The notes under the pieces: model-generated | Databases searched by the model: none | Told to the model about the DNA's origin: nothing | Seen by the model: the letters and a program-made list of their open reading frames with translations, nothing else | Assembly (NCBI RefSeq): GCF_000217995.1 | Contig: NC_015676.1 | Location: forward strand, 1,345,708-1,409,707 | Length of the DNA stretch: 64,000 nucleotides | DNA from: Methanosalsum zhilinae DSM 4017 | GTDB taxonomy: Archaea > Halobacteriota > Methanosarcinia > Methanosarcinales > Methanosarcinaceae | Reading direction: 5' to 3' | In this document: one piece after another, positions 29,255-53,912 of the stretch | Layout of the letters: each line of letters begins with the position of its first letter | Numbering within the stretch: position 1 is the stretch's first letter | Translations under genes and position numbers: made by a program

Positions 29255-29294
29255 AGGCCAGACCTACCCTATCTTATTTTTATTATGTTTGATA

Positions 29295-30476: not shown

Positions 30477-30518
30477 ACGGTTCCTTACTTATACTCATTA
30501 ATTTACATTAAATCAGGA

Positions 30519-31246: not shown

Positions 31247-31342
31247 ATTTCTCACATTTAAATTTTTGTACCTACTGTATACAATGGAAAACATTATATA
31301 TAATACTTACTAAATAATTATATCAAGTATATTCATTTTAAG

Positions 31343-37276: not shown

Positions 37277-38008
37277 TCATATCTTCATAAAATACTTAAT
37301 ATACCAATTATCCTCAATATCATAATATCCGATACAAACAGATTCTAAATTTTTGAAACTGATTCTATTAAGCATGTTCTGGATTTGCGTTAAAGAAACC
37401 TCTGTTTCCTTATCATACAAAAATATGATTCTGGGTAGTATATGTCCGTGGTAATTCTTTATTATCATTTCTTCAAAGGACTTGTCAAATCTCTTTACTT
37501 TGTCAATTACAGTTTCGGGTGTTGTTTTGGTTTCAAATTCAATTATATTAGTTATTGAGAAGGCTGAATTTGTATTTGGATCATGCAGACAATATATTAT
37601 ATCAGGCAATATCAATCTTGACTCTCTTGTGCATGGATATGGTAGGCTGTTACTTCCCATTACTTTTTTCCAGTCCAGTTGATTGGATTTTTTAGTAACG
37701 GTTTTCCTGATTTTATCAAGCGCGTCATTGTGGGACAATTGTTTTGTAGTACAATCTTTGTATCCTTCACTACCATTTAATGTAATTGTAGCTTTGTGTG
37801 TCAGGCACTCCCTTTTCAATGAATGTGGACGATTGTGCTTTAGACACCAAAAATATTGTGGAGTTTCGGAATTTGTCTGATCTAAATCAATGTATTGTTT
37901 GTGATCCTCCCAAGTTTTCTTTTTTGGTCTGTGCCATGCTACCTTATGTTCTGTACTACATAACGAACAAGAATAATACATTTTTTTATTTAATTCCATG
38001 TTAATCAT
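37277..38008 (-). CDS. Hypothetical protein, possible PD-(D/E)xK-like nuclease
   Basis: This 243-aa ORF has an N-terminal CxxC and a weak D...E-x-K-like pattern (LPDIIYCLHD...IIEFETK). No solid motif is present. Confidence 0.3.
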   Translation of the reverse strand: MINMELNKKMYYSCSLCSTEHKVAWHRPKKKTWEDHKQYIDLDQTNSETPQYFWCLKHNRPHSLKRECLTHKATITLNGSEGYKDCTTKQLSHNDALDKIRKTVTKKSNQLDWKKVMGSNSLPYPCTRESRLILPDIIYCLHDPNTNSAFSITNIIEFETKTTPETVIDKVKRFDKSFEEMIIKNYHGHILPRIIFLYDKETEVSLTQIQNMLNRISFKNLESVCIGYYDIEDNWYIKYFMKI

Positions 38009-38014
38009 CTTCTT

Positions 38015-38560
38015 TTATTGAGCAAAGTATTCTTTTAAGCGATACATTGTTACATAGTCTAAGTATTCCACATTATCATATTTTGCACATTCATCAATCA
38101 TTAACTGGGATGTTGTATCCTGAATTCCGACTACAACGATTTGTTTTTGTAGTTTATACATGGAAATATGACGGACAACAGGAACGAAATCTTTATCTCC
38201 ACTCACCAAAAAAAATGTGTTGATATGCGGCTGTTCATACAATATTTTTAACATATCGCAAATAATCATTGGGTCTGCAAGACTTTTTTTATCTCCACCA
38301 GGAATTTCAAAAGATGGAGCATATTCAGTCTTGATACCTTTTAAGTAAAGATTGTATTGTAGACTACGATTATGTTTGCGTGTAGTATCTAAGTATAGAT
38401 TGCTTAACACAATATGGCCATATTTTTTAGCTTCATCTACTATAATGTCAAAGTCACAGTATGTGTTGATAGCTTCATGTGACCCAATGTTAATATTGTC
38501 ATAATCAATGAACATGGCGACATTTGATCCATCTGTTTCTGAGCTAGCCATTTGGATCAC
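38015..38560 (-). CDS. NYN-domain (LabA/DUF88-like, PIN-fold) putative RNase
   Basis: An N-terminal VAMFIDYDNI motif and downstream FLVSGDKDFVPVV match the NYN acidic-residue pattern. Its start overlaps the stop of the upstream gene by 4 nt. Confidence 0.6.
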   Translation of the reverse strand: MIQMASSETDGSNVAMFIDYDNINIGSHEAINTYCDFDIIVDEAKKYGHIVLSNLYLDTTRKHNRSLQYNLYLKGIKTEYAPSFEIPGGDKKSLADPMIICDMLKILYEQPHINTFFLVSGDKDFVPVVRHISMYKLQKQIVVVGIQDTTSQLMIDECAKYDNVEYLDYVTMYRLKEYFAQ

Positions 38561-39381
38561 TCCAATTGTGGATTTGAATCAAAATAATTCCTACATGTTT
38601 CAGCAATGAATTCTTTCCTTGATTTATTATCTCTGGCTAATTCAATGACCGATGAAAGTGGCATAGGCATTGACAATGTGATAACTTCGGACTGCTTTAC
38701 CCGTATTTTAAGCATTTCTGCAAGCATCCTGGAAATTGAACATATTATGTCATATATTTCAAGTTCATGCGAATAAATTGCCGAATTTTGATAGTCATCA
38801 TTAGAAAGAGATTTTCTGACCAAGTTTGCCTTTTCATTTGCATCAAAAGAATCCGGAAGTAAATCACTATTAGAAACTAAAGTGTCATAAATGATTTTTT
38901 GTACATCTTCTAAGTATTCCAAGTTAGTACCTTGGAAAAAAAGACCATCATTTATAATCTCAATTCCATAGGTACCCAGGTCTAAAATTCTACCATTATC
39001 GCTTAAAACATCATTAAATATAGATTTAAATTCGGATGCATAATCACTTAATTTATATATTTCCTCAAAAAACAAATCATATGCATCGCCACCATACATA
39101 GAATCATTCAAATAACTATCAATAAGTCTATTACTATCAATGGAATCATCGTACAGAGCATCAAAAAAATCTTCTACCTCATCTAAATCTTCCAGAATGA
39201 AAAAACCAATTTCATATTCTATAGTGCACGTACTATTTTCAGAAGTAAGGTCAAAGACACAGTAGGCATATTGCTCAGTAAAGTTGCCATCAACGATGCG
39301 AATCAATTTATCAGTTAGGTTTACAGCATCTTTTTTGTCTATACCTCTCTCAGAACATTCTTTGAGGAAGAGTTCTCTCAT
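38557..39381 (-). CDS. Acidic hypothetical protein translationally coupled to the NYN nuclease
   Basis: The 274-aa product is Asp/Glu-rich and shares an ATGA overlap with the NYN gene. It has no known motif. Confidence 0.4.
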   Translation of the reverse strand: MRELFLKECSERGIDKKDAVNLTDKLIRIVDGNFTEQYAYCVFDLTSENSTCTIEYEIGFFILEDLDEVEDFFDALYDDSIDSNRLIDSYLNDSMYGGDAYDLFFEEIYKLSDYASEFKSIFNDVLSDNGRILDLGTYGIEIINDGLFFQGTNLEYLEDVQKIIYDTLVSNSDLLPDSFDANEKANLVRKSLSNDDYQNSAIYSHELEIYDIICSISRMLAEMLKIRVKQSEVITLSMPMPLSSVIELARDNKSRKEFIAETCRNYFDSNPQLE

Positions 39382-39853: not shown

Positions 39854-42800
39854 TTGTGTAACTTCAAATGGAATTATGGAGTTGGGGTATTGGAGTTAAA
39901 CCGTGATTGTGATTCTGGGGTAAATGAAAATGAATACAGATCTCAGCAGCAACTAAAGAGTCATTCAACTGATAAAAAAAGTGATGCTGTAAATTATTCC
40001 AATGAAAAGGAAATACTTCAGAGAATTGAAGATTTATTGACCGATATCATAAAAAAGAAAACTGAGTTGCAGCTTGATACTTTCTTTAATCATTTAAATG
40101 ATGAACATGAGAGTTATTATAATTACGGTCTTGGTTTATTCTATTTAAAGCAAAATGACAAGAAGAGGTCATTGAAACATCTTTTATTCTCATACGACCA
40201 ATTCAAAGCCACTGATAAATATGTCAGTGCCGCAATTGCATGTTCGAAAAGCATTGAGCAGAATCCTAAAAATGCTGAATTGCATAGAAGGATGGCAGAG
40301 ATGCATCATCAATATGGTGCTTACAAAAAATCACTTGACTCGTATCTTGAAGCTATAGAGATATACAAGCAACAAAGAGAATGGACAAAAATAAAAAATC
40401 TATGTAATATTGCAGAATCGATCGATTCAAATAATCCTCTAATTTGTGAGATGTATGGGTATGCTTACAAGAACACTGCCGGAAAAAAGCCTGAAGCTAT
40501 AAGCTACTATGAAAAAGCAAAGCAGATATATCTTAACTGTGGACAAAAAAAAGATGCTGAAAGGTGTAACAAAATAATGAATGAGATAATGTCAAGTTCG
40601 CGGGTTCAGGAACTTGATATTTCATATTTCACATCATATAAAAGAGATAACATTAATACAGTAGCTATAAGTGACGGCATACCTGTTGATGAATGGATAA
40701 ACAGTAATCATACCAGTTCAAATGTATTAAAATTAGCCGAATCTGATGATATGCTATTGGATTATGATATTTATAAAGTGGATCGATCCATATGTCTTAC
40801 CTTGGAAAGGACCAATGGAAGTTATAGACAATCATATTCAAAACTTGAGGATTTTTTCTTAAACCTCTTTTTCGAGATGCTTAGTCTAAGACAAGAGTCC
40901 TTTAATGATAGTAACAAGAGTTTCAACTATGATGAGTATTATACCGTGAAATCAGAATTCCTTGAGTTCAGGCAAATAATAAATCAGGCATTGGGTCAGG
41001 CTTACATGAACCAGGATTCTAGTTCTATTGGCACGATCTATACCACCCCTGCACTCTCATTATTGAAGAAACTGCTCAAATCAATTGACCCTGACCTTAA
41101 TGAGGTACAGCTGGAATATATTGAGCAAGCTAAACATATTGCTGTACCAGGGAGTGCTTTATTTTACTTAGAACTGTTCACTCAATTAAAAAGAAAGGAT
41201 ATTATCTTAAAACTGCAGAGGTACACCAGTGATTATGGTTATAATGAGATATCGGGTTTGATTGATATACCTGTACTCCTTCTCAAACCATGGGACCATC
41301 AACTGGAAGCTTTCAAAGCATGGAAGAACAATCGATCAAGAGGAATAGTTGAAATGGCTACTGCAACTGGTAAGACTGTAGTCGGGTTCATGGCAATAGA
41401 AAATTTAGTGAACACAAACCAAAAGAATAGAAAAATAATTGTTCGGATAATAGCAAGTTCTACAGCTATACTGAACCAATGGAGACGTGAACTCATAGAG
41501 AAAATGGGGTTAATGGCAGATCCGAAATTAGATTATACATCCAGTATAATCTGTAAGGGTGCTCATATTAATTTCCAAACAGTTCAGCTTGTTATGAAAA
41601 GACCCGAGAGTTATGCATGTGATCTTTTAATAGTGGATGAAGTACACCATTTTGCTGCGGAATCTTTCAGAAACGCCTTAAAAGTTCCAACACCCAGAAA
41701 AATGGGTCTTTCAGCTACAATTGAAGGTAAAACTAAACTAGATTATTTGGCTAAATATCTGGGTCCCATAATTTATAGGTTCGACCTTGAAAGTGCAATT
41801 AAAGCCGATATACTCCCTAAGTTCGAGTGGAAATTGAATGTGGTATACCTTTCAGTAACAGAAGAAGAGGATTTTGAACAAATATCAAAACAGATATTAT
41901 CATTATTCAACCAAGTTTCAAAGGATTATGCTACTATCAGGAAGATAAGTAAATCTGAGATTACTATCACTAACTTATATCATTTTGTAAGATTAACTGA
42001 AATTGCTAGATATAAAAAAATAGGATTGCCAGATGAATGGAAGGCACTGCAGGCTAAATTGCAGGAAAGAAGGTGGATCATCCATAGGTCACAACCTAAG
42101 ATCAACAAGGCAATTGAACTTGCTTCTTACTATCTGGAACTAAAAAAGAAAATAATCCTTTTTGTCATGGATATTAATACTTGTGATCTGGTGGCCAGTG
42201 AACTAGAAAAGAAATACTCGAATGTTTATGTAGCACATTCCAGAATGAAGGATGCTAATAGAAGCATACTATATTTCAAGAAGGCGGCTTCGGGGATACT
42301 CATTGGAGCTAAGATGCTTGATGAAGGTATTGATATACCCGATGCAGAGGTTGGGATAAATGTATCCTCTACTGAATCCAAACTACAGCTTGTACAGAGG
42401 CTAGGTAGAGTATTAAGGAAAAAAGAGAATAAAATTCCGATATTCCATCATTTCATTGGACTACCTTCAACTGGCTCTTATGTGAATTATGAAGATAATA
42501 TCAAGTTTATGGAAGAGCTGTCTAATATCCAGGATATTGCGCTTCATTTAGGTGTTGAGACGGAGATGAATTACGAGACTGATCAGCTCCTAGATGTTCA
42601 TAACAGTGCCGAAACAATGGTCCATGAAACTAATTTTGGTGATAAGGTAGGTACTTTATATTTAGGTAATATTCTAAAACAATTTAAAGAAAAAGAAGTC
42701 CACCAAACCATATTGAGACGATTGGGCCTATTTGATCCTGATAAAAAGATATCAGATGAGGAATGGAGGCAGATAGTGCGAGAAGCGTTTGGAATTAAAG

Positions 42801-42898
42801 ATGAACTATACTTGAACGTACCTGGATATTGGTGGGTGCTTGTTATCGGAGATAGGAATGCTAAGAAGATATCAAAGCTGCTAAAGAGTCGGTGTTAG
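39854..42898 (+). CDS. TPR-like N-terminal domain fused to an SF2 helicase (ResIII/XPB-like DEVH)
   Basis: The helicase core has Walker A ATATGKT, DEVH (LLIVDEVHH), motif III SAT and motif VI QRLGRVLR. The N-terminal 450 aa are TPR-like helical repeats. Confidence 0.65.
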   Translation: MCNFKWNYGVGVLELNRDCDSGVNENEYRSQQQLKSHSTDKKSDAVNYSNEKEILQRIEDLLTDIIKKKTELQLDTFFNHLNDEHESYYNYGLGLFYLKQNDKKRSLKHLLFSYDQFKATDKYVSAAIACSKSIEQNPKNAELHRRMAEMHHQYGAYKKSLDSYLEAIEIYKQQREWTKIKNLCNIAESIDSNNPLICEMYGYAYKNTAGKKPEAISYYEKAKQIYLNCGQKKDAERCNKIMNEIMSSSRVQELDISYFTSYKRDNINTVAISDGIPVDEWINSNHTSSNVLKLAESDDMLLDYDIYKVDRSICLTLERTNGSYRQSYSKLEDFFLNLFFEMLSLRQESFNDSNKSFNYDEYYTVKSEFLEFRQIINQALGQAYMNQDSSSIGTIYTTPALSLLKKLLKSIDPDLNEVQLEYIEQAKHIAVPGSALFYLELFTQLKRKDIILKLQRYTSDYGYNEISGLIDIPVLLLKPWDHQLEAFKAWKNNRSRGIVEMATATGKTVVGFMAIENLVNTNQKNRKIIVRIIASSTAILNQWRRELIEKMGLMADPKLDYTSSIICKGAHINFQTVQLVMKRPESYACDLLIVDEVHHFAAESFRNALKVPTPRKMGLSATIEGKTKLDYLAKYLGPIIYRFDLESAIKADILPKFEWKLNVVYLSVTEEEDFEQISKQILSLFNQVSKDYATIRKISKSEITITNLYHFVRLTEIARYKKIGLPDEWKALQAKLQERRWIIHRSQPKINKAIELASYYLELKKKIILFVMDINTCDLVASELEKKYSNVYVAHSRMKDANRSILYFKKAASGILIGAKMLDEGIDIPDAEVGINVSSTESKLQLVQRLGRVLRKKENKIPIFHHFIGLPSTGSYVNYEDNIKFMEELSNIQDIALHLGVETEMNYETDQLLDVHNSAETMVHETNFGDKVGTLYLGNILKQFKEKEVHQTILRRLGLFDPDKKISDEEWRQIVREAFGIKDELYLNVPGYWWVLVIGDRNAKKISKLLKSRC

Positions 42899-43150: not shown

Positions 43151-46100
43151 TTATATTATATTTCCATTTTCATTTGTACGATGACACCAACTGGGTCTCC
43201 GTAATAAATTGAAAGTATCAATGAATTTAGGACTCTCATCCCTATCACCTTTTAATTCATTTATTGCCTCTTTAAAAATACCCGTTGGGTTATTTACATC
43301 CCATAATGGATGAACTACTAATGCTGAATATGAATCTGTAAAAATACATGGAAGTTTCCCTCTTAGCTCAACATTACCATTGAATGCAAAAGCATAACTT
43401 TCAGCCTCCCTATAAATAAAATTTAACCAATCATTCCCATAAATATTGGTAAATTCAGGATAATGATAGTCTGCTTCTTTAAGCCCACAGGAATATGATG
43501 ATGATTGTAGTACCCTAAGGTATGAAGTACCTAATCTCCAGTCTAACAACCCGTGGTAATGCATGTTCCTATATGACATAATGCAATTATAACATGCAGA
43601 ATCACAACTATTAGCATGCTTTTCAGAGAATAATTGAGATGAGAAGGAACTGGCATACTTTGGATGCAATATATCATCTAGAATATGTTCAAAATTATCA
43701 TTTATCCAGCTTGCAAAGCCTGAACCGTTCTGTAACCTATCGCTCAATGTAATATCCCCAACATATATGTTGGAAGCAATCTCAGCTCGCTGGAAATTAC
43801 AAAGTTCTATTTCCTCTGTATCTATGTCCAGTAAATTTGAAAGATAAGATTTTATTATAAAACTAGCTGAGTAAAGTGCCGCTCTAACACCACCAAAAAC
43901 CATATAGTTTGCTTTTGGTCCAGTGATATTTTTCACTGGGTCCAAGGTGATACCAGGAATGATTTTTTTGGGTCTAATTTTAAGGACATCGGTTATTTTA
44001 CTTGAAGCAAGTCCAATCTTTTCAAAATTAATATTTGAAATGTCTGATTCATCGGCAACCTGGTCAATATACTCTTTTGCTATCCATTGATTGTTAAACC
44101 TTAAATAACGTCTTTCATTGATTTTTTGAGTATCTGAAAGGTCATCATTTGAATATCTATTTTTGTTGGTAGTAATGGTGGCTCCTTCAAAAAGTAGTCC
44201 ATTATTATCATTTATCGACCATGTATGGCATGCGGGTTCAAAGCTGGTTTCACAATTTAAGCCATTTCTTTCATTGAATCTTGGATTTCTAATGTCAGCT
44301 AACGATAATTTAAATTTGAAGCTACTAGTAGTGAATTTCTTTTTTTCATTACCTAATGAAAAATTAGTTCTGAATGCAAGAGGTGTAGCAATTTCTATAG
44401 ATTGAACAAGCTTCTCATCATTTGCTTTACAATAAGGACAAACATATTTCTCTTTGCATGGTAGATTATCAACTTCCACTCGTCCACACACTTTACATCT
44501 ACTTAAACACCATCTATATGGGAGAGGAGGCGCTGTAGGATTCACCAGATTCCATCCACCTTTATGGCTGTACTTGATTGGTTGTGTGAAGCCTATTGCA
44601 GTATGAACAGCCTTATCTTTAGTTTTTTGGGCACCCGGTGCAAAATCACTGATTGCAATTTCAAGGTCTCGATCTATGACCTTAGCTTTCTTCTTTTTAA
44701 ACCCATGATAGAGCAACCTTTGTTTTGAAGGAAGACCATATAAGGGAAGTATTCCTGCCTCTGAAAGCCTTTCTGCAAGGGAAACACTTGTAAATTCTTG
44801 ATTATTTACAGCTGAAGTGATTAAATCAGGTAAATCATCACTTAGATAATCTAATAGCTCGCTCTCAATATCAGGGTCATTAGAATCTATAAGGGCTAAT
44901 ATTATTGACTTTTTAATATCTAATGTCATAGAATTGCTTTTATCAAGCCAGGAGCTTATTTTTGGTCCAGTTTTGTCCCATGTCAGATCTGATTGAGTAG
45001 AGTTTTCGGCATCTTCAAGAAATGCATACCCAAATTCTCCATGAATGTCGCCTTTATTCTGACAATGCCACCACCTAATACCTATAGCATAAAAAGCGAC
45101 TTTTAAACATTCTTTGGATAGCAGTCTTTTGACTATTTGAAGCTGGTCTTTACCCGTGGTTATAAAAGGAACTGGTGGCGGGTCTATTATGATTCTTTTT
45201 GGATTTTCGTAATAATAATCGTCATGAGTTCTACCTCCACGACAAAGGGTCAAAGCTATTGAGAAAGGATGCTCTCTTCTTCCTGCTCTACCCACTCTTT
45301 GTTGGTAATTGAATCTTTCTGGTGGCATGTTGGCAAGCATAACTGATTGTAAGGTTCCAATATCAACACCTACTTCCATTGTTGTAGTCACACTCAACAT
45401 ATCAATAGTATTTATTTTTTCATTATAACCATCGTTATCAGATTCCAAGAAAAAACCACGGAAAAGCCTTTGTCTCCCATGTTGATCATCCGTTTGACCT
45501 GTGAGCTCTTCACAATGGAGTCTTGTAGGTTCACGACCTTGAATTGCTGGCAATGCAAGATAGTTAGATGCCCAAATATCATGACACTTAGCCGTTGGCT
45601 CTTTAGCTAGTTTTGATTGACAATTTGAGCACACACCTGCTGAAAAGTGTAAATGTATTCTTCCACAGTTGGAACAAGTCCATACAGGATCATTTCGTTC
45701 ACTTGATTTTATCCAGAGTTCTCCTGTAATCAAAAATGCTTTATTGTGTCCAGCTTCTTCAATAGTTCTATAAAGAACGTCTAAAAAAACACTTTCTTCA
45801 ACACAGCGAGGATACTTTTTTACGACTTTAGTAACATAATGCTTTACTTTTGGCAATCCAGATTCAAAGCTGTGAATATTATAATCTCTATATTGAGGAT
45901 TTGAGTTTTCATGCCGCCATTGGTCTCCTAAAATACGAATAATAGATGAGCAAATTTGTTCTAATGATAGTGAATCAATTCCACATTCATTAGCAATTTC
46001 ATCCAAACGTTCTTCAGTAAAGCCAACTGTAGGATAACCCAATCCAGATGATTCAAAGTTAAAATATAATCTATCAAATAGAATTCGTGCAATTTGGCTT

Positions 46101-49100
46101 CTAACGGATTGATACATTCTATTTTTTTGAGCAGTAAAATCAGGCGAATATATCTTTTTCCAGGTAAGATTGTTTAAATCAAATAACTCATGCCATGGTT
46201 TCCATTCATTATTCCATTTAAAGTATTGATCTTTAATAGTAGGTCCAGCAGGGTTAATACCCAACTGAATCATGTCATGAATTAGAACACCACATGTCTC
46301 TTCGCTGGAATTTGGTGGTCTATCGATTAAAGAAGATAATTTTATTTTGTTTGTCTCAGATGTCTTTTGAAGAGTGGATAAATCAACTTTTGCAAGTTCT
46401 GCCTTTTCTTTAAATAATTCCTTATAGACCTCATTACTTTCATTTGCAAATATCTCTATAGTTTGATATTTCTCAAATATTTCTTTAGCTTTAATATGGT
46501 TCTCACGGATAAAGTCCGTTATTTCACATGTATTTTCAATCTTTTCTGATTCAATCATTGAATATAGAATGTCAAAAGTGATGTCAACTATTCTTATATC
46601 CTTGTTCAAATTTTTGATGAAATTTAAAAAAGTATAAGATGAATTGGTGGAATTTCTAATATGTTTTACAAATAAATCTCTAAAAAGCTCTGAGAAGTGG
46701 CTTGATTCGATGTCTAAAGCCAAGTCTGCGGCATCCTGGCGACTGTCTGAGAAAATAACAGTCTTTCTCAAATCTTCTGGGAGCTGTGTGAACATCTCTT
46801 TTGCCAGTAATTGGCTGACTTTCCCAAATCCTGTCCTAAAAGAGCGAACTGGTGACATGAGACTAGTAGTTTCACTACTAGATTTACTGTAATCAATCCC
46901 ACAGTTAGCACAAATTGATGGTAGTGCTGAAAATAACTCAGATATTTCTGGGTTATCTAGCATAAAGACATATCCGCTAACAAAACCATTATTTCCATAA
47001 GCTATATTCTTCGTACTTCTATCGATAACAACCCTACCAGTTTGAGGGTTCAGATGTGCTCTTTTCCATTTTGAGTAAGCTACTCTCCCATTTTTAGATC
47101 TGTGAGGTTTTTCTTTCTTAGCATTATCATTTAGTATTTGATTTCCAGTGGGCCAAAATATAATATGTTCAAAATAGGTTTTTTGTGTTAGAAAAGGATT
47201 GGACATTTTCTCAGGAATGCCCTCAATATCGGGATCAGTCGGTAATATTTCAAATTCAGTATCACTAACTTTGAGTCTGTTTCCACCATAATATAAAGTT
47301 CCACAATGTTCACAATAGTAAACAGCTAAAACTCGAAATCCGTCATTATCAGTTATTTGCGGTTTAAGATATAGTTTACCTACAGTCCTATCATCTTCAT
47401 AATTAGCAATATTAGTAGATGCCCAGAGCCCATCAATATTCCTTACAAACCAATGAAATCTAAATGTTGGAAGATTCGAAGTCTTGGTTCTTATTCCATC
47501 TGTATTTTCATTACTTATATATTTATTACATAATGAACGGGCAACAAACAACCCACGTGTAGCTTTTTCAAGAACGTCTTCGCTATGGTCTCCAAACAAA
47601 TTATACCCAAACTTCAATAAAGGAACAGCAGGAACATTTTGTGAGAGGTCACAAGAGTGAGACAATCTTTTTTTCATCTCAAGAGATGGGGATTCCATAA
47701 CTTTTACAAGAGAATTTAAACCGTTGTTAGTATCAATATCAGGGTCAAAAAAAAGTGCAAAATCTATCATTTCGTCTTCTTTTGGTAAACGATTGGACTC
47801 AATCAGTTTAGTGAAAGGAACAGGGTTCAAATGCTTATCCCCTTCTATTTCAGTAACTTGCTCTTTCTCACCACATATTATGTTGAAGTCACAGTTCTTA
47901 CCAAAAAAGTCATCCAAAAACTTCCTGCTCTTTTCGTCATCACTTTCAATAGATGCACTTGATGAAATTATTCGTAACTGCGGATGACCAGGTTTTAGAT
48001 CCAAGCGTCTTAAAAATAATTTCAACAGATAGCTAATCTCTGCTCCTGATGTACCTCTATATAAGTGGAGTTCATCTATTACTAAATGGAAGATATTATT
48101 TTTATCTTTTTCAAGCCACTTTCTTGTTTTTTTAAAAATTTGCTCATCTTCCTCTCGCATCATCATTACGTTAAGCATAGAAAAGTTAGTAACTAAAATG
48201 TCAGGTGGTTGCTCTTGCATATCCCATCTAGACCTCATTTCAGCGCCGTTCAAGCTTGGCCAGAAATATCTTATTTTATCGTAATCAGATGACTGAAATG
48301 TATGTAGTTTCTTTGATGCTTTTAGTGCTTCATGATATTGTTTTTCATTCTCACGTAATATTTTTTGTAAATGTTCGATTTTTTTCTTGTTAGGAGTACG
48401 TTTTCCACTTGAAGTATATTTATACTCGTGTCCAGGAACAGGCGTTGAGCTATTGTAACGACCAAAATAAAATAGATTACCATTCCTTGTTTTTTCAAGT
48501 AAGCTTTTAATATTATCTGAATCTAAAGCTTTCCTAAGTCTTGTAAGCTGATCTTCTACAAGTGCATTCATTGGATAGATTATTAGTGCCCTTAACGCTG
48601 CATCTCTATTTTCATGTTCACGTTGTGGCACTCGAATTGAAACTTTATTCTGGTTATTATTGCATTCCTCAATCCATTTTTTATTGCTCCACCAATTTTT
48701 ATAATTTGGATGGGGGGGTTTTGGTCTTGTCCAGTTCTTAGACTCTTTTATTAGCATGGCAAATATAGGTAAAAGAAAAGCTTCGGTCTTTCCAGATCCT
48801 GTTCCTGTTGTTATTATACAATTATTCCCATTTAATGAAGATTTTAAAAGCTCTATTTGATGATCATAAAGTTCAAAATTCCCTAAAAGACCGCATAACG
48901 TAATTTCTTTAAAATCATTAATTAATTTCTCGTCCATACCTGGTAAATCATCAATAACAAGATCATTTGGAGTTTTACCAGAAGATTTGTATTTTTGAAC
49001 GACTTCAACCCATGGTTCCTTATAGACGTTATCATTAGACATAAGTAGCTTCTTTCTTTCTTCTTCAACTGAAGGGAAGCGGGAAAAAAATCTAGTTTTA

Positions 49101-49165
49101 ATATATAGAATGAAGTTTCCTTTAATTGTATTAAAACTACCAATTGGATCGTCCATTGAAATCAA
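43151..49165 (-). CDS. Giant 2004-aa SF2 helicase with a split helicase core and C-terminal DUF1998-like Cys clusters (DruE / DrmA-DrmB-like)
   Basis: The N-terminal half carries motif I TGTGSGKTEAF, motif Ia YPMNALVEDQ and motif II DELHLY. Helicase-C motifs V/VI (TTMEVGVDIG...QQRVGRAGRR) appear about 800 aa further downstream. The C-terminus has CxxC...CxxC clusters (CEHCG, CSNCG...CSNC, CKVCG...CPYC). Confidence 0.65.
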   Translation of the reverse strand: MISMDDPIGSFNTIKGNFILYIKTRFFSRFPSVEEERKKLLMSNDNVYKEPWVEVVQKYKSSGKTPNDLVIDDLPGMDEKLINDFKEITLCGLLGNFELYDHQIELLKSSLNGNNCIITTGTGSGKTEAFLLPIFAMLIKESKNWTRPKPPHPNYKNWWSNKKWIEECNNNQNKVSIRVPQREHENRDAALRALIIYPMNALVEDQLTRLRKALDSDNIKSLLEKTRNGNLFYFGRYNSSTPVPGHEYKYTSSGKRTPNKKKIEHLQKILRENEKQYHEALKASKKLHTFQSSDYDKIRYFWPSLNGAEMRSRWDMQEQPPDILVTNFSMLNVMMMREEDEQIFKKTRKWLEKDKNNIFHLVIDELHLYRGTSGAEISYLLKLFLRRLDLKPGHPQLRIISSSASIESDDEKSRKFLDDFFGKNCDFNIICGEKEQVTEIEGDKHLNPVPFTKLIESNRLPKEDEMIDFALFFDPDIDTNNGLNSLVKVMESPSLEMKKRLSHSCDLSQNVPAVPLLKFGYNLFGDHSEDVLEKATRGLFVARSLCNKYISNENTDGIRTKTSNLPTFRFHWFVRNIDGLWASTNIANYEDDRTVGKLYLKPQITDNDGFRVLAVYYCEHCGTLYYGGNRLKVSDTEFEILPTDPDIEGIPEKMSNPFLTQKTYFEHIIFWPTGNQILNDNAKKEKPHRSKNGRVAYSKWKRAHLNPQTGRVVIDRSTKNIAYGNNGFVSGYVFMLDNPEISELFSALPSICANCGIDYSKSSSETTSLMSPVRSFRTGFGKVSQLLAKEMFTQLPEDLRKTVIFSDSRQDAADLALDIESSHFSELFRDLFVKHIRNSTNSSYTFLNFIKNLNKDIRIVDITFDILYSMIESEKIENTCEITDFIRENHIKAKEIFEKYQTIEIFANESNEVYKELFKEKAELAKVDLSTLQKTSETNKIKLSSLIDRPPNSSEETCGVLIHDMIQLGINPAGPTIKDQYFKWNNEWKPWHELFDLNNLTWKKIYSPDFTAQKNRMYQSVRSQIARILFDRLYFNFESSGLGYPTVGFTEERLDEIANECGIDSLSLEQICSSIIRILGDQWRHENSNPQYRDYNIHSFESGLPKVKHYVTKVVKKYPRCVEESVFLDVLYRTIEEAGHNKAFLITGELWIKSSERNDPVWTCSNCGRIHLHFSAGVCSNCQSKLAKEPTAKCHDIWASNYLALPAIQGREPTRLHCEELTGQTDDQHGRQRLFRGFFLESDNDGYNEKINTIDMLSVTTTMEVGVDIGTLQSVMLANMPPERFNYQQRVGRAGRREHPFSIALTLCRGGRTHDDYYYENPKRIIIDPPPVPFITTGKDQLQIVKRLLSKECLKVAFYAIGIRWWHCQNKGDIHGEFGYAFLEDAENSTQSDLTWDKTGPKISSWLDKSNSMTLDIKKSIILALIDSNDPDIESELLDYLSDDLPDLITSAVNNQEFTSVSLAERLSEAGILPLYGLPSKQRLLYHGFKKKKAKVIDRDLEIAISDFAPGAQKTKDKAVHTAIGFTQPIKYSHKGGWNLVNPTAPPLPYRWCLSRCKVCGRVEVDNLPCKEKYVCPYCKANDEKLVQSIEIATPLAFRTNFSLGNEKKKFTTSSFKFKLSLADIRNPRFNERNGLNCETSFEPACHTWSINDNNGLLFEGATITTNKNRYSNDDLSDTQKINERRYLRFNNQWIAKEYIDQVADESDISNINFEKIGLASSKITDVLKIRPKKIIPGITLDPVKNITGPKANYMVFGGVRAALYSASFIIKSYLSNLLDIDTEEIELCNFQRAEIASNIYVGDITLSDRLQNGSGFASWINDNFEHILDDILHPKYASSFSSQLFSEKHANSCDSACYNCIMSYRNMHYHGLLDWRLGTSYLRVLQSSSYSCGLKEADYHYPEFTNIYGNDWLNFIYREAESYAFAFNGNVELRGKLPCIFTDSYSALVVHPLWDVNNPTGIFKEAINELKGDRDESPKFIDTFNLLRRPSWCHRTNENGNII

Positions 49166-49293
49166 CTCATTAAAACAATACTACATTTACCATAATATTT
49201 TTAAGTGAATTGGTATATATAAAAATATTGTTTAAATAATGCAGTTTCAATGGGGATTTTTATCTGACTGATAAACCTGTAATAGAAGATTTA

Positions 49294-51381
49294 ATGAAAC
49301 GCTCTATCCTGATATATAGAGAAGAAAATATTGAGATCTCAAATGCAGAAATAGAGTTAGTCAGACAAGTCTATCGAAATATTCGAAAGAATAGAAGAGC
49401 TGGGTTGATAATAGATTTTAGTGAAGATAACAATTTGTTGTTAAGGCTGATAGTTTCTGAACTTATGTATAAATATTATGAGTTAAAAACGCCATTTGCA
49501 TTTATTACAGATAGTACAGGAAAGCGATTTGTGAATGAATCCTTAAAAGAACTTAGAACTAAAAGAGATAGTTCTAGTCTTTATAGACTACTAATTCAAA
49601 ATCCTATCAAACAAAACAAAGTGTTCGACATAAACAGAGATACTAAAAATCTAAAAATATTTAACTATTTTATATTTTTTAGAGTTCCTAATATTTTTGA
49701 GTCTCTAAATGAATTTTATGGTCATAAAGTTTTGATTTTAACTAAAAGAGACAAAAATAAAGTTGGTGACAGAATAAAATCCATTGTGTCAGACTTAAAA
49801 CACAGTGGTTGGGCTTACCTGGAAGTAAGTGTTAAAAATAAAAATAAAAGACAGATTGAGAAAGATGATGTTAAAATTAGTTTAATAGATGATCACGATT
49901 TAAGCTCCTTGCTAAAAGAAATACTGGACGCACTTTCGAATTCTAATGGGTCAACTAATGATATAGAGGCACTAATAAATTTCTACTTTACTTTACCAAT
50001 AAAGCTCAAAAGCTATAACGAGTTGCAGTATGAACATACTCATAATAGCAATTTAGAACAATTGCCTAGTGAACAAATAGCAAAAAATAATAAATTGTGT
50101 CCACGAGACTCATTGATGTTTAACCTTCTATTTCAAAAAATGGAAAACCATCTATTAGATACAAATTTAAAATTTAATCATGTTCTACTAAGAGCAAAAG
50201 CTTTAAATGAGCTAGGTAAAACTGTTTCGCTTTTACTTCCCAATAGAAACTATTCAGAAATGTTTAGTGAGGTTATTGCAGATACGGACTATAAAAATAT
50301 AATTGAAGCCGACAATATTTGGTATCCTGAGCTGATATCCCGAGATGTATTGATGGATGAAATCATAATTGATACGATCATGATTCCTTTTGTTCCTTCT
50401 AATACCGTATTAGATGATGTGTTAACCATTGCAGAAGACGTGATTTTTGTACTTTATCCTGAAGAAGTTCTCATTCTGGAACATTTTACTAATATGTCTC
50501 AAGATGATAATATAATGCACGATTCAACAGAGTTCAATTCAAATCTTAAAATTAACCAAAGGGGCTGTAGTTCTACTAAAACTTCTAAATTTACAGATTT
50601 AAAAAAATATATGAATAACAACTTTAGAGATTTTAAAAGGGGTTTTCATTACACTTCATATAGTGGATTTTTGCGAAGTCTCGATGCTGATGACGACATT
50701 GAAGAAGTATCAGACTTGGATGATATGAATAGGTCAATTAATTATAAAATTATTTGTGCTGAAGGAAATATTATAGAATCTTCAAGCTTAGAACATGTTA
50801 TTCTTTTCGAAAAAGGTTTTTATTCCCCAATTTATGCTAGTAAACTAAAGAAGAACCAAGAGTTTATAGTTATTAGTTCAGAGACTAAATTAAAGTATCT
50901 AGAGAGAGAAATTGAAAGTCACCGTAATAATAGACTACTATCAAATATGGAATATGAAAGTTTGATAGGTTATATTGCAGAATGGAAAAGTGCACTTAAA
51001 TCTGTATTAAAAGAATATGAATTAAAGGAGATTTATAGTAAATTAAACCATGATGGTTATAGATATAACTATGTAACTATCAAAAACTGGTTTAAAGGAC
51101 TTGAAAATGACCCTAAAAAATCTGCAATAAACTCAATACTTAATACTAATACTAATATAGGTCCACGAGATGAAGAAACTATTAAAATTTTTGGGGAAAT
51201 TTTTGATTTACCTCAATTGATTCAAAACTATCGGTTTATTAGTGCTTCTATGAAACATTTTAGAACAAACAATCGCATTGCTGGAAGGAGAGCAATGAAA
51301 AATATAGTTATGGATCTCAAACAAGGAAACCTTGAGTTACCAAAACATAAAGTAAAAAAGATAACTTCTAAAGAACAATAA
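49294..51381 (+). CDS. Hypothetical 695-aa protein, divergent from the giant helicase
   Basis: This long, Lys/Asn-rich ORF has no recognisable catalytic motif. Its start is 129 bp from the start of the 2004-aa gene. Confidence 0.4.
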   Translation: MKRSILIYREENIEISNAEIELVRQVYRNIRKNRRAGLIIDFSEDNNLLLRLIVSELMYKYYELKTPFAFITDSTGKRFVNESLKELRTKRDSSSLYRLLIQNPIKQNKVFDINRDTKNLKIFNYFIFFRVPNIFESLNEFYGHKVLILTKRDKNKVGDRIKSIVSDLKHSGWAYLEVSVKNKNKRQIEKDDVKISLIDDHDLSSLLKEILDALSNSNGSTNDIEALINFYFTLPIKLKSYNELQYEHTHNSNLEQLPSEQIAKNNKLCPRDSLMFNLLFQKMENHLLDTNLKFNHVLLRAKALNELGKTVSLLLPNRNYSEMFSEVIADTDYKNIIEADNIWYPELISRDVLMDEIIIDTIMIPFVPSNTVLDDVLTIAEDVIFVLYPEEVLILEHFTNMSQDDNIMHDSTEFNSNLKINQRGCSSTKTSKFTDLKKYMNNNFRDFKRGFHYTSYSGFLRSLDADDDIEEVSDLDDMNRSINYKIICAEGNIIESSSLEHVILFEKGFYSPIYASKLKKNQEFIVISSETKLKYLEREIESHRNNRLLSNMEYESLIGYIAEWKSALKSVLKEYELKEIYSKLNHDGYRYNYVTIKNWFKGLENDPKKSAINSILNTNTNIGPRDEETIKIFGEIFDLPQLIQNYRFISASMKHFRTNNRIAGRRAMKNIVMDLKQGNLELPKHKVKKITSKEQ

Positions 51382-51388: not shown

Positions 51389-52389
51389 GGCTCTGTAGAA
51401 ATCTTATGTAAATAATAATTGTAAATGAGTTATACTTTTCGATATTATGTGTTAAATCTTACATTTACTTCCTTTACCTGGTTTCTGTACTTTCTTGACT
51501 TAATTTCTTCACCACATTTTCTTTTCAGAACGGAGAACATTGTTTCTACCAGGTTTCTCGAATGGTAGAGTTTCTCATCAAACTCTTCAACCATTTTCCT
51601 ACGGTATTTGCCATTTATTTTCTTTCTTTTCCTCTGTCTTACAGGGATAAGAGGACTTGAATTCATGTTCTCTCGTTTGAGAACATGAATTTGTTCAGAG
51701 TCATACCCTTTATCCAGGACATCGTATTCTGAATGACGAAGTCTATGGCATTGCTTCAGCAATGTTTGTGCGTGTTTCGTATCGTGTACAGGTTTACTTG
51801 AGACCTTAAACCCAGTAACAATAAATTTTTCAACATCAATTGCTATACTTGTTTTTAGATATGATCTCCTTTTCTTTCCAGTCCTCATTGAATAATTGTA
51901 ACTACAATGTCCACCCGTAAATCCACTTGAATCAATAGCAGTGAGATATATTCTTTCACCATGATAATAAAAGAGTTTTAGAGTTTGTTTCAATATGCTG
52001 TTAAAATATACTGATGGTATTCTACTCATGAATTTTTGTAATGTTGTAAAATGTGGTACCTGTTTTATTCCAAGTTTATTCTGTACTTTATCCATTAATT
52101 CAATGAGTTCAACGAAGTTTCTATAGTCCTCATTTAAGTATTCTTTTAGTAAAACCAGTGTCATTAACTGGTGCTGAGTATATTTTCACTTAGAATACTT
52201 ACTGCTATACAATGGAAGATGAGATATTCCTGAGACAGCAATGGCTGTATCATAAAGTTTAAGTATTTTCTTGACAAAAATATTCATCCCCCTGTTGTTT
52301 TTGTTTGTTTACCAAAAAAACACAGGGGACTTATCCTTTTTATAACATTAGGTTGAAGTGGTAATAGAAAATAGGATTTCTACATAGCC
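51389..52389. mobile_element. IS5/IS4-family insertion sequence (~1.0 kb) with 15-bp terminal inverted repeats
   Basis: The left end GGCTCTGTAGAAATC (51389-51403) and the right end GATTTCTACATAGCC (52375-52389) match as inverted repeats at 14 of 15 positions. Between them lies a DDE transposase ORF. Confidence 0.6.
51445..52164 (-). CDS. IS4/IS5-family DDE transposase
   Basis: The 239-aa product has DDE_Tnp_1-like motifs (AIDSSGF; DKGYDS; ETMFSVLKRK). Confidence 0.7.
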   Translation of the reverse strand: MTLVLLKEYLNEDYRNFVELIELMDKVQNKLGIKQVPHFTTLQKFMSRIPSVYFNSILKQTLKLFYYHGERIYLTAIDSSGFTGGHCSYNYSMRTGKKRRSYLKTSIAIDVEKFIVTGFKVSSKPVHDTKHAQTLLKQCHRLRHSEYDVLDKGYDSEQIHVLKRENMNSSPLIPVRQRKRKKINGKYRRKMVEEFDEKLYHSRNLVETMFSVLKRKCGEEIKSRKYRNQVKEVNVRFNT

Positions 52390-52568
52390 GACTTTTCATC
52401 CCTTTAAAATATAAATGGAACATATTCTATGGTTCCGGCTTTTCTTTTCAATCAATATCTGGTTTACAATAAACCAACAAAAAATTACTCAGGGTCATAT
52501 TTTGAAGATTAACTTGAGACTTCATATTATCTTAATAATTGTTGTATTAACCCTGTTTTTTGATAACT

Positions 52569-52979
52569 CTAAGAAAGCTTGCTCCTAGCTGCCTTATACT
52601 TCTCTATCCTGAGTTTATCTTCAGGTGTAGGGTCTGGAATCCGAGATAAAACCAGGTTATCTTCAATATCTGCTAGCTTCACCCTACAAGCGATATAATT
52701 TTGCGAAATTCTGTCAATGAACAGGCTATAATCTTCCCCTTCTTTTTTTGTTAGATGAGTAAGCACTTCAATCACTTCTTCTGAAAAGCCTTCATCTTTA
52801 AGTTCTTTAAACGTTATTGATGAATCTTCCACAACATCATGTAACACTGCACATATTCTCTCAATATCTGTATTCATCTTCATCATGATTCTTAGAGGAT
52901 GAAGGATGTAAGGCTCCCCGCCTTTATCTCTCTGCCCATAATGTGCTTTGCAAGCAATTAATATAGCCTTATTCAACAA
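52569..52979 (-). CDS. HD-domain protein resembling the RelA/SpoT (p)ppGpp hydrolase domain (small alarmone hydrolase-like)
   Basis: The N-terminal motif AHYGQRDKGGEPYILHPLRI matches the SpoT-hydrolase A-H-x-G-Q-x-R-K-x-G-x-PY-x-x-HP signature. An HD dyad (LHDVVED) and a downstream KLADIEDN follow. Confidence 0.6.
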   Translation of the reverse strand: MLNKAILIACKAHYGQRDKGGEPYILHPLRIMMKMNTDIERICAVLHDVVEDSSITFKELKDEGFSEEVIEVLTHLTKKEGEDYSLFIDRISQNYIACRVKLADIEDNLVLSRIPDPTPEDKLRIEKYKAARSKLS

Positions 52980-53159: not shown

Positions 53160-53912
53160 TCACTTTAATTGCAAAAAAATTTCATCCAGACCATAAGTAA
53201 TTACATTTATTCGGTTTGACTTATTTGAGATGTAATCAACTGATATCATAGATAACTGAAATGGAAAAAGTGCAGGTGAACTTGTTATCATTTTAAAACA
53301 TCCTTTATTTTCTGGTATTGCATACAATACTGACTCTACAAGCAAAACAACAATTTCATCATCGTGTACGTTTAGTTGATTTGCTTTTACATAACATCCT
53401 TTACATTCTGAATCCTTTAAAATACCCCATTCTACGAGAGAACGAATCACATATCTGGCATACCTGCTAATAGTTTGTCTATCACCATATTGCTCTTTGA
53501 GTCTGTTGGTTATCTGATGTAGAGTAATCTGATCTTGAAGGTTCAAAAGTCTCCCCACCTGCAAAGATACGTTATACCAAAAAGGATAAGCTGCACAAAT
53601 CATTGCCCAGTGTATTGCAAGAGATTCAGAAGGATATTTGCGTAGCTGCTCTAAGGCAGAATCCCGTAAACCTAAAAGCTCAGGTTCAGGAGATACCCAG
53701 GTTTTCATTAGATTGGCAACGACAAATTTGCATGTGTTCTTACTTCGTTGATCTTCAGAACCACCGCATCTATAATGCATTAGATACTCATTAAACTCTG
53801 AACGTATTGATTTCTCATCCATTCCTGCAAGAAGCATACTAGCTGTTTTTTCCATCCATTCATAACGAATAACCTGCTTTATTCCAATGGAATCATACCT
53901 TTTACTCATCAA
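53160..53912 (-). CDS. Hypothetical protein, terminal gene of the defence operon (BrxA-like by position only)
   Basis: This 250-aa ORF overlaps the stop of the PglZ gene by 4 nt. It has no motif I can assign. Confidence 0.3.
   Translation of the reverse strand: MMSKRYDSIGIKQVIRYEWMEKTASMLLAGMDEKSIRSEFNEYLMHYRCGGSEDQRSKNTCKFVVANLMKTWVSPEPELLGLRDSALEQLRKYPSESLAIHWAMICAAYPFWYNVSLQVGRLLNLQDQITLHQITNRLKEQYGDRQTISRYARYVIRSLVEWGILKDSECKGCYVKANQLNVHDDEIVVLLVESVLYAIPENKGCFKMITSSPALFPFQLSMISVDYISNKSNRINVITYGLDEIFLQLK

What the first reader, a model, noticed from the sequence alone, without database searches (positions are those of the whole stretch)
43151..49165. 2004-aa split-core SF2 helicase with DUF1998-like zinc-ribbon clusters (DruE / DrmA-DrmB fusion-like), apparently solitary
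The helicase N-lobe (motifs I, Ia, II DELH) and the C-lobe (motifs V/VI) are separated by about 800 aa of inserted sequence. The C-terminal 700 aa carry multiple CxxC pairs, as in DUF1998. The size and architecture fit Druantia DruE or a fused DISARM DrmA+DrmB. The usual same-strand partners (DruH; DrmC PLD) are not evident, however. The neighbours are a convergent TPR-helicase and a divergent 695-aa unknown. This could be a reduced or novel variant.
Basis: partly seen in the sequence, partly recalled or inferred. Interest (0 to 1): 0.65.

Follow-up and report, generated by a model that had tools for sequence, protein, structure and literature searches.

The report
Druantia helicase with new partner gene
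The giant gene is a genuine DruE anti-virus helicase in an archaeal defence island, and it is not alone: it forms a conserved head-to-head pair with a rare 695-aa helicase-like protein that replaces the usual Druantia accessory genes, an arrangement no paper in the searched library describes.

Summary
The 2004-aa ORF (43151-49165, minus strand; likely ATG start at 49156, 2001 aa) is real and intact. It matches PADLOC DruE profiles end to end (1724 bits). It has intact helicase motifs, seven CxxC motifs (0.8 expected by chance) and a C-terminal module whose best structural match is MrfA, the DUF1998 helicase. So the DruE call is right.

"Solitary" is wrong. The divergent 695-aa neighbour (49294-51381) is a conserved partner:
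- In 8 DruE lineages, a full-length homologue sits head to head with DruE.
- The two proteins co-diverge (r = 0.88, Mantel p = 0.0004).
- In Methanoplanus limicola a 123-nt direct repeat brackets exactly this pair.

Partner-linked DruEs form one clade nested among 80 canonical loci. Those carry DruF-DruL-DruE-DruK-DruM (PADLOC type IV-like) and never the partner. The partner is rare (about 12 full-length cluster representatives among 1.84 billion). It has an SF2-helicase-like fold with degenerate ATPase motifs and a C-terminal domain of the DISARM DrmE_C type.

The window lacks DruF, DruL, DruK, DruM and any remnants of them. I read it as a reduced two-gene Druantia variant without methylase or nuclease. 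Defence function and mechanism are inferred, not shown.

The parts
43151..49156 (-). druE: 2001-aa YprA/MrfA-family SF2 helicase, the Druantia signature gene. The stop codon is at 43151-43153. The ORF can also be read from a TTG at 49165.
   Evidence: PADLOC DruE2 at 1724 bits covers residues 1-1994 against profile positions 1-1922 of 1928, and DruE4 scores 1652 bits. There are 6330 homologues at E<=1e-20. PDB 9wae_A, a 1970-aa 'Helicase', matches at 777 bits over residues 3-1988.
47897..48874 (-). DruE RecA1 lobe (about residues 95-420), with motif I GSGKT (120) and motif II DELH (361).
   Evidence: Pfam DEAD scores 58 bits. The motifs are invariant in 17 homologues.
45557..47896 (-). DruE inter-lobe insert (about residues 421-1200), with paired CxxC clusters at 615/749 and 1161/1176. 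In published DruE architectures this region holds a BrxA-like domain, a beta-barrel zinc module and a MarR-like domain.
   Evidence: The domain names are taken from PMC12458937 and were not tested structurally here.
45152..45556 (-). DruE RecA2 lobe motifs (about residues 1201-1335), including motif VI QRVGRAGR (1286).
   Evidence: Pfam Helicase_C matches at 1249-1294. This stretch also matches the type III DruE structure 9tu7 and MrfA 6znp.
43154..44665 (-). DruE C-terminal OB-CON-MZB (DUF1998) module plus terminal domain (residues 1498-2001). It has a zinc module at C1554/C1557/C1573/C1576 and the MZB Cys cluster C1851/C1855/C1858 (nt 43583-43606).
   Evidence: The AlphaFold2 model has pLDDT 78.5 and pTM 0.80. 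Foldseek's top hit is MrfA 6znp_A (E = 1.6e-5, probability 1.0), and DrmB 7s9v_B ranks third. Pfam MZB scores 14.4 bits at 1769-1859.
49157..49293 (.). A 137-bp AT-rich divergent intergenic region shared by druE and the partner gene. It presumably holds both promoters.
   Evidence: The sequence was read. The head-to-head gap is 83-232 bp in 7 of 8 loci. The sigma-70 scan was uninformative, and the host is archaeal.
49294..51381 (+). Partner gene: a 695-aa degenerate SF2-helicase-like protein. It has a RecA-like core (about residues 1-400, nt 49294-50493), a small beta-barrel (482-525, nt 50737-50868) and a helical DrmE_C-type C-terminal domain (529-695, nt 50878-51378).

Best explanation
Window 43151-51381 holds a two-gene Druantia-type defence cassette in an archaeal defence island. 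It consists of an intact DruE helicase and a divergently transcribed 695-aa partner, which takes the place of the DruF-DruL accessory pair of PADLOC type IV / type II-like Druantia.

**Shown**
- DruE identity and integrity.
- Conservation, co-divergence and cassette-like mobility of the pair.
- The partner's helicase-like fold, its degenerate ATPase motifs and its DrmE_C-type C-terminus.
- Absence from the window of DruF, DruL, DruK, DruM and of any methylase or nuclease partner.

**Inferred, by analogy with type III DruE and DISARM DrmAB**
- DruE loads on exposed single-stranded DNA or ss/ds junctions of invading DNA and unwinds it 3'-to-5' using ATP.
- The catalytically dead helicase-like partner acts as a DNA-binding sensor, adaptor or regulator that licenses or restrains DruE. 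This is the role proposed for DruH, and possibly for DrmE, which is essential in class 2 DISARM.
- No methylase is present, so self versus non-self would be decided by DNA structure rather than by modification.
- No dedicated nuclease is present, so clearance would rely on unwinding or immobilisation, or on host or neighbouring nucleases.
For: - **DruE identity:** full-length PADLOC DruE match, invariant helicase motifs and Cys clusters, and an MrfA/DrmB-like C-terminal module.
- **Conserved pairing:** the partner is found head to head with DruE in 8 lineages, at 23-56% partner identity and 33-64% locus GC.
- **Co-divergence:** r = 0.88, Mantel p = 0.0004.
- **One clade:** partner-linked DruEs form a single clade nested in the DruF/DruL-type radiation. 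None of 80 canonical loci has the partner, and they carry DruF, DruL, DruK and DruM instead.
- **Cassette:** a 123-nt direct repeat brackets exactly the pair in M. limicola.
- **No decay:** no DruF, DruL, DruK or DruM remnants in six-frame translations of the window.
- **Context:** a dense defence island with BREX type 3, Gabija and an IetA-like gene.
- **Mechanistic precedent:** type III DruE is a 3'-to-5' ssDNA-triggered helicase (10.64898/2026.05.13.724758, 10.64898/2026.05.12.722862). DrmAB is triggered by DNA structure (PMC9142583). drmE is essential in class 2 DISARM (10.1101/2021.12.28.474362).
Against: - No experiment exists on this subclade, so defence activity is inferred from homology and context only.
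- The closest relatives (L093, L091, L089, L087) keep a DruK-like nuclease, Vsr and/or a C5 methylase downstream. The window's two-gene state could therefore be a crippled remnant rather than a self-sufficient system.
- Four independent lineages do share the minimal form: the window, L001, L002 and L005.
- Reverse association is only partly tested. About 7 of about 12 full-length partner-family representatives have unknown genomic context.
- No effector nuclease was identified.
- One DruE of the clade (L090) shows no partner, but its contig is short.
Confidence: 0.68

Rival explanations
1. This is a decayed remnant of a type IV-like Druantia operon. DruE survives as an orphan after loss of DruF, DruL, DruK and DruM, perhaps through the nearby IS element, and the locus no longer defends.
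For: All four canonical accessory genes are absent. A DDE transposase and an HD-domain fragment lie 60-1600 bp beyond the partner gene. Sister loci keep DruK, Vsr or a methylase.
Against: - DruE is full length and retains every invariant residue of the family.
- No pseudogene traces remain.
- DruF/DruL loss is ancestral to the whole clade, not local.
- The same minimal pair recurs in L001, L002 and M. limicola, where it is bracketed by a 123-nt repeat as an inserted unit.
- The partner is intact and conserved.
Confidence: 0.17
2. This is a reduced DISARM class 2-like system rather than Druantia. The big protein acts as a fused DrmA+DrmB, and the 695-aa protein is a DrmE orthologue.
For: The partner's C-terminus matches Pfam DrmE_C (24-32 bits). 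More distant proteins sharing that domain hit PADLOC DrmE through their C-termini. DrmA, DrmB and DrmE are the essential class 2 genes (10.1101/2021.12.28.474362). DrmB ranks among the top structural matches of the DruE C-terminus.
Against: The helicase scores 1724 bits on DruE against 39 bits on DrmA. The full-length PADLOC DrmE profile finds none of six partners even at E<=1. There is no PLD (DrmC) and no DrmMII. The DruE tree places the helicase inside the DruF/DruL-type Druantia radiation.
Confidence: 0.1
3. This is a housekeeping DNA-repair helicase of the MrfA/YprA or Lhr type, unrelated to defence.
For: It is an SF2 helicase with an MZB module, as in MrfA. Some database sources label homologues 'Lhr-like helicase' or 'YprA'.
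Against: MrfA matches at only 36.6 bits over about 90 residues. The protein is 2001 aa and has the Druantia-specific insert. It sits in a low-GC island among BREX, Gabija and other defence genes. Its distribution across phyla is patchy. No MrfB-like partner is present.
Confidence: 0.03

Closest known systems
Druantia type IV (PADLOC: DruE4 + DruF4 + DruL4, often with DruK and DruM) and the related type II
   Same: DruE is of this lineage: 1652-1724 bits on the DruE4 and DruE2 profiles, nested in the tree among DruF/DruL-linked DruEs. Some sister loci keep a DruK-like PD-(D/E)xK nuclease, Vsr and a C5 methylase.
   Different: There is no DruF and no DruL, which are the defining accessory genes. 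They are replaced by an unrelated (hhalign probability 0.1%), divergently transcribed 695-aa gene. In the window DruK and DruM are also missing.
Druantia type III (DruH + DruE)
   Same: It is also a minimal two-gene organisation, a giant DruE helicase plus one large accessory protein without a methylase. It is the only Druantia type with a worked-out mechanism: an ssDNA- or fork-triggered 3'-to-5' helicase (10.64898/2026.05.13.724758, 10.64898/2026.05.13.724313).
   Different: DruE3 profiles score only 174-267 bits. The type III DruE structure 9tu7 matches at 108 bits in RecA2 only. No DruH profile hit was found at E<=1. The partner is about 700 aa and helicase-like, whereas DruH is about 1100 aa. 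The genes are divergent rather than co-directional. The PLD-like C-terminal domains were not seen.
DISARM class 2 (DrmA, DrmB, DrmC, DrmMII, DrmE)
   Same: The YprA-family helicase plus DUF1998 module are fused here. The accessory protein carries the DrmE_C domain, and DrmE is essential and of unknown function in class 2 DISARM.
   Different: The helicase is DruE-type rather than DrmA-type. The partner matches DrmE only in its C-terminal roughly 150 aa. There is no PLD nuclease and no methylase.
MrfA/YprA DNA-repair helicase (PDB 6znp)
   Same: The SF2 core and the OB-CON-MZB 'canopy' module are shared, and MrfA is the best structural match of the C-terminal region.
   Different: This protein is about 2.7 times longer, with a zinc-rich insert of roughly 800 aa and extra zinc modules. 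It lies in a defence island and has no MrfB partner.

Membership tests
DruE (Druantia signature helicase) | Full-length match to a DruE profile | tested here: met
   PDLC00014 scores 1724 bits, covering residues 1-1994 against profile positions 1-1922 of 1928. PDLC00051 scores 1652 bits.
DruE (Druantia signature helicase) | Intact SF2 ATPase/helicase motifs | tested here: met
   GSGKT at 120, DELH at 361 and QRVGRAGR at 1286, all invariant across 17 homologues.
DruE (Druantia signature helicase) | OB-CON-DUF1998 (MZB) module C-terminal to RecA2 | tested here: met
   The model of residues 1498-2001 matches MrfA 6znp_A (E = 1.6e-5, probability 1.0), and DrmB ranks third. The Cys cluster C1851/C1855/C1858 is invariant. 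Pfam MZB alone is sub-threshold at 14.4 bits against 24.2.
DruE (Druantia signature helicase) | Zinc-rich insert between the RecA lobes (BrxA-like, beta-barrel zinc module, MarR-like; PMC12458937) | tested here: inconclusive
   An insert of about 800 aa with invariant CxxC pairs at 615/749 and 1161/1176 is present. The domain folds were not modelled here.
Druantia type IV (PADLOC) | DruF and DruL encoded next to DruE | tested here: not met
   No DruF or DruL hits among the neighbours or in six-frame translations of the whole window. By contrast, 72 of 80 canonical loci have DruF.
Druantia type II | DruM, DruF and DruG with DruE | tested here: not met
   None was detected in the window.
Druantia type III | DruH adjacent, and a DruE of the type III clade | tested here: not met
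   DruE3 profiles score 174-267 bits against 1724 for DruE2. No DruH hit was found for the partner or its five orthologues at E<=1.
Druantia type I | DruA-DruD with DruE | tested here: not met
   No DruA-DruD hits were found. The DruE1 profile gives only a partial match of 574 bits.
DISARM class 2 | DrmA-type helicase with a separate DrmB, a PLD DrmC and a DrmMII methylase | tested here: not met
   DrmA profiles score 33-39 bits in RecA2 only. No PLD or C5 methylase lies within the surveyed ORFs.
DrmE | Full-length match to the DrmE profile (PADLOC PDLC02635, 790 positions) | tested here: not met
   No hits for any of six partner orthologues at E<=1.
DrmE | DrmE_C domain (Pfam PF24957) | tested here: inconclusive
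   The window's partner scores 24.3 bits, below the cutoff of 27. The M. limicola orthologue scores 31.9 bits over positions 37-176 of 181, above the cutoff, and two others score 25-26 bits.
MrfA/YprA housekeeping helicase | A helicase of about 750 aa without the large insert, often with MrfB | tested here: not met
   This protein is 2001 aa. MrfA matches at 36.6 bits over about 90 residues, and there is no MrfB-like neighbour.
Active SF2 helicase (partner protein) | Walker A GxGK[ST] and Walker B DExx | tested here: not met

The most novel reading that the evidence does not exclude
DruE plus the DrmE_C-bearing pseudo-helicase is an autonomous, methylation-independent two-gene defence system. 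It would be a fifth Druantia type, found mainly in archaea, in which a dead SF2 helicase took over the sensor or regulator role of DruF/DruL. It would link Druantia to class 2 DISARM in the way ARMADA links Druantia to class 1 DISARM.
Probability: 0.4. Interest if true: 0.62.

Novelty: new variant of a known kind. Interest (0 to 1): 0.5.

Why it matters
Druantia is widespread, but only type III has a worked-out mechanism, and the roles of the accessory genes of types I, II and IV are unknown. This locus shows that the DruF/DruL pair can be swapped for a single unrelated protein with a dead helicase fold and a DrmE-type domain. It also shows that the nuclease and methylase can be dropped.

That offers three things:
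- a minimal type II/IV-lineage system of about 8.2 kb for dissecting what a DruE accessory protein must do;
- a handle on DrmE, which is essential in class 2 DISARM yet has no known function;
- an archaeal example for a family studied only in bacteria.

If the pair defends by itself, current detection tools miss it. PADLOC v2 would report an orphan DruE.

Tried and rejected
- **First genome scan:** scanning genome contigs with the single DruE protein found nothing, so the species is not among the GTDB representatives. The second scan, with an alignment, worked.
- **Word-index search for the partner:** both the single-sequence and the alignment query returned only a self-fragment. The exhaustive phmmer search was needed.
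- the partner alignment could not be handed to the search of protein representatives because it held non-window sequences.
- **AlphaFold database unavailable:** the afdb50 fold library was not on the machine. I could not compare the partner with predicted DrmE, DruF or DruH structures.
- **Partner as a diverged, inverted DruF, DruL, DruK or DruM:** rejected, hhalign probability 0.1%.
- **Convergent TPR/PbeA-like helicase as the partner:** rejected, because it is absent from all related loci except the same strain.
- **A conserved small third gene beyond the partner:** rejected, because the ~80-aa ORFs are unrelated to one another.
- **Promoter scan:** at chance level (47 sites against 41.7 expected) and not suited to an archaeon.
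- **Flanking repeats in the window:** none convincing.
- **Literature gaps:** Ofir et al. 2018 (PMC5739279) is not held. No paper was found for PDB 9wae. The search for DruL/DruK returned only noise.
Full report
**Observation.** The ORF at 43151-49165 on the minus strand is real, uninterrupted and 2004 codons long from a TTG. An ATG at 49156 gives 2001 aa and aligns with the N-termini of homologues. Motif I (GSGKT, residue 120), motif II (DELH, 361) and motif VI (QRVGRAGR, 1286) are present and invariant in 17 homologues. The two helicase lobes are thus separated by about 850-900 aa. There are seven CxxC motifs against 0.8 expected from the Cys content. They form paired clusters at 615/749, 1161/1176 and 1554/1573, plus the 1851/1855/1858 cluster.

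**What the big protein is.** PADLOC profiles for DruE match end to end: DruE2 at 1724 bits over residues 1-1994, DruE4 at 1652, DruE1 at 574 (partial) and DruE3 at 174-267. DrmA reaches only 33-39 bits. Pfam finds DEAD and Helicase_C, but MZB/DUF1998 scores only 14.4 bits against a cutoff of 24.2.

The best structural match is MrfA, the founding DUF1998 helicase (6znp_A, E = 1.6e-5, probability 1.0), and DISARM DrmB ranks third. Many homologues also carry a precomputed PF09369 hit. The module is therefore present.

The 'split core with zinc clusters' is the architecture published for DruE and its relatives in the YprA-family survey PMC12458937. That architecture runs NTR, RecA1, then an insert (BrxA-like domain, beta-barrel zinc module, MarR-like domain), RecA2, a helical domain, and OB-CON-DUF1998 with inserted zinc modules. 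A solved structure of a full-length relative exists (PDB 9wae, 1970 aa, 777 bits). I found no paper for it.

**Host and setting.** The window is archaeal. It encodes aIF-2, Pus10, an archaeal-type shikimate kinase and a XerA-like recombinase. It also has a tRNA whose intron holds the C/D-box sRNA sR3. A gyrase A gene suggests a euryarchaeon. G+C drops from about 0.40 to 0.28-0.36 between roughly 20 and 54 kb, starting next to the recombinase gene. That stretch and its flank form a defence island. It holds a BREX type 3 operon (PglXI, BrxHI, PglZ, BrxA) with Gabija GajA/GajB inserted in it, an IetA-like ATPase, a PbeA-like TPR-helicase and a NYN-domain gene.

**Is it solitary? No.**
- None of the ORFs between 23.5 and 64 kb matches DruA-D, DruF, DruG, DruH, DruL, DruK or DruM. 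Six-frame translations of the whole window contain no remnant of DruF, DruL, DruK or DruM.
- The loci of the closest DruE relatives all show the same thing: a gene of about 700 aa transcribed divergently from DruE, 83-664 bp away. This holds for L001, L002-4, L005-6 (the complete Methanoplanus limicola genome), L087-88, L089, L091 and L093.
- These proteins are full-length homologues of the window's 695-aa ORF at 49294-51381 (23-36% identity).
- A scan of species-representative genomes gave 80 further DruE loci at 33-44% identity. A profile of the partner hits none of them.
- Instead, 72 of the 80 have a co-directional DruF, usually followed by DruL (fused to DruF in Bacteroidota). Often DruK (a PD-(D/E)xK nuclease) and DruM (a C5 methylase) follow DruE. 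This is PADLOC's type IV, a relative of type II (PMC8565338).
- Profile-profile comparison finds no relation between the partner and DruF, DruL, DruK or DruM (probability 0.1%). No PADLOC model hits any of six partners at E<=1.

**Three further tests of the coupling.**
1. In a neighbour-joining tree of 91 DruE proteins, all partner-linked DruEs form one clade nested within the DruF/DruL-linked radiation. This is consistent with a single replacement event.
2. Pairwise identities of DruE and the partner across eight loci correlate (r = 0.88, Mantel p about 0.0004). Both have the same nearest neighbours, and the loci span 33-64% G+C.
3. In M. limicola a 123-nt direct repeat (97% identical) lies at 7520-7642 and 15932-16054. 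It brackets exactly the partner (7727-9877) and DruE (10001-15913), which marks the pair as one inserted unit.

**Variation within the clade.** L093 and L091 have a DruK-like nuclease and Vsr after DruE. L091 also has a convergent C5 methylase. L089 has Vsr and a methylase, and L087 has a methylase. The window, L001, L002 and M. limicola have only the pair. One clade member, L090, shows a methylase, DruE and a nuclease without a visible partner, but its contig is short.

**What the partner is.**
- Rarity: reading all 1.84 billion cluster representatives with HMMER gave 30 hits. About 12 are full length. The rest share only the C-terminal roughly 170 aa, some within proteins of 1200-1400 aa. 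Several of those hit PADLOC DrmE through their C-termini.
- DrmE_C signal: Pfam DrmE_C scores 24.3 bits on the window's protein, below the cutoff of 27, and 31.9 bits on the M. limicola orthologue.
- Dead ATPase: the family has no GK[ST] P-loop and reads 'LTLRD' where DExx should be. It is most likely a non-catalytic helicase-like scaffold.
- No PDB sequence relative exists.

**How it probably works (inferred).** Type III DruE is a dimeric helicase that engages exposed ssDNA or ss/ds junctions and unwinds 3'-to-5'. DruH acts as an ssDNA binder, exonuclease or sensor, depending on the study (10.64898/2026.05.13.724758, 10.64898/2026.05.12.722862, 10.64898/2026.05.13.724313). DISARM DrmAB is autoinhibited and is released by DNA structure rather than by sequence (PMC9142583). 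drmE is of unknown function but is as essential as drmA and drmB in class 2 DISARM (10.1101/2021.12.28.474362).

By analogy, I propose that this DruE loads on invader-specific DNA structures. The dead-helicase partner would bind DNA and/or DruE to license or restrain it. With no methylase in the window, discrimination would rest on DNA structure. With no nuclease partner, clearance would depend on unwinding or immobilisation, or on other nucleases. PMC12458937 predicts that the terminal domain of type I and II DruE is an inactivated Vsr fold. I did not test this here.

**Rivals.**
- A decayed orphan (0.17) is disfavoured. DruE and the partner are intact, there are no remnants, DruF/DruL loss is ancestral to the clade, and the minimal pair recurs in four lineages.
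- A DISARM class 2-like reading (0.10) captures the DrmE_C link, but it fails on the helicase type, on the full-length DrmE profile, and on the absence of PLD and methylase genes.
- A housekeeping MrfA/Lhr role (0.03) is contradicted by size, architecture and context.

**Known versus new.** DruE itself is known. Its architecture is published and a close structure is deposited. What I could not find is this pairing. PADLOC v2 has no model for the partner. The YprA survey does not mention DrmE. No paper in the library holds DruE and DrmE together. I therefore rate it a new variant of a known kind.

**Caveats.**
- There are no functional data on this subclade.
- Reverse association is untested for about 7 of about 12 partner representatives.
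- The afdb50 library was unavailable, so I could not compare the partner with DrmE, DruF or DruH models.
- Newer releases of detection tools may already include this arrangement.

**Verdict.** Interest is 0.5.

Noticed in passing
window 53160-63940 (- strand): A BREX type 3 operon runs PglXI (62504-63940, cut by the window end), BrxHI (55909-58836), PglZ (53909-55909) and BrxA (53160-53912). A complete Gabija pair, GajA (60685-62517) and GajB (58829-60688), is inserted between PglXI and BrxHI with overlapping stop and start codons. This is a defence system nested inside another operon.
   Followed up: no
window 9801-9993 (+): A tRNA gene carries an intron that holds the C/D-box sRNA sR3 (9842-9916, 60 bits). 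This is a classic euryarchaeal arrangement and helped to identify the host as an archaeon.
   Followed up: partly
window 20299-21429 (+) and 20000-54000: A XerA-like tyrosine recombinase sits exactly where G+C falls from about 0.39 to 0.28-0.36. This suggests that the roughly 34-kb defence-rich stretch is an integrated element. No att sites were searched for.
   Followed up: no
L005 7520-7642 and 15932-16054 (Methanoplanus limicola CM001436.1): A 123-nt direct repeat (97% identical) brackets exactly the partner + DruE pair. The repeat is the 3' end of a small ORF, so the pair appears to have been inserted as a cassette, with no integrase inside it. The mechanism of insertion is unknown.
   Followed up: partly
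window 49840 vs L092 (Logan SRR060055 contig 66): An independent assembly of the same locus is 99.99% identical over 11.5 kb. It lacks one A in an A5-T-A5-T-A4 tract inside the partner gene, which splits it into 196 + 490 aa there. This is most likely a homopolymer sequencing error, but phase variation is not excluded.
   Followed up: partly
window 39854-42898 (+) and 37277-39381 (-): The convergent 1014-aa TPR + ResIII/Helicase_C protein matches PADLOC PbeA (200 bits). Divergent from it is a three-gene minus-strand set that includes a NYN-domain protein (38015-38560). It is not conserved next to DruE elsewhere, so it may be a separate, uncharacterised module.
   Followed up: partly
window 51445-52979 (-): An IS-type DDE transposase (239 aa, 51445-52164) and a 136-aa HD_4 fragment (52569-52979) lie between the partner gene and BrxA. 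They are signs of rearrangement at the junction of the two systems.
   Followed up: no
window 28055-32644: An IetA-like AAA ATPase (29295-30476, 150 bits) has an unannotated 399-aa gene downstream, which may make an IetAS-like pair. Next to it are a Snf7-like gene (ESCRT-III/PspA type) and a Band7/SPFH gene with a zinc ribbon.
   Followed up: no
L034, L036, L039 and about 30 other Bacteroidota loci: In Bacteroidota, DruF and DruL are fused into one protein of about 940 aa upstream of DruE. DruK and DruM follow DruE almost invariably. In cyanobacteria the operon is usually DruF-DruL-DruE without DruK or DruM.
   Followed up: partly
PDB 9wae (and 9waf, 9wds, 9wdu-9wdy): Seven deposited structures of a 1970-aa 'Helicase' match this DruE over its full length (777 bits). 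That is far closer than the type III DruE structures at 108 bits. No paper in the library cites the entry.
   Followed up: partly
P0142, P0144, P0146, P0149, P0150 (1200-1400 aa): Longer proteins share the partner's C-terminal DrmE_C-type domain. In some cases about 440 aa align at 21-24% identity, and several touch the PADLOC DrmE profile only at their C-termini. This may be a broader, unnamed superfamily. Their genomic contexts could not be looked up.
   Followed up: partly
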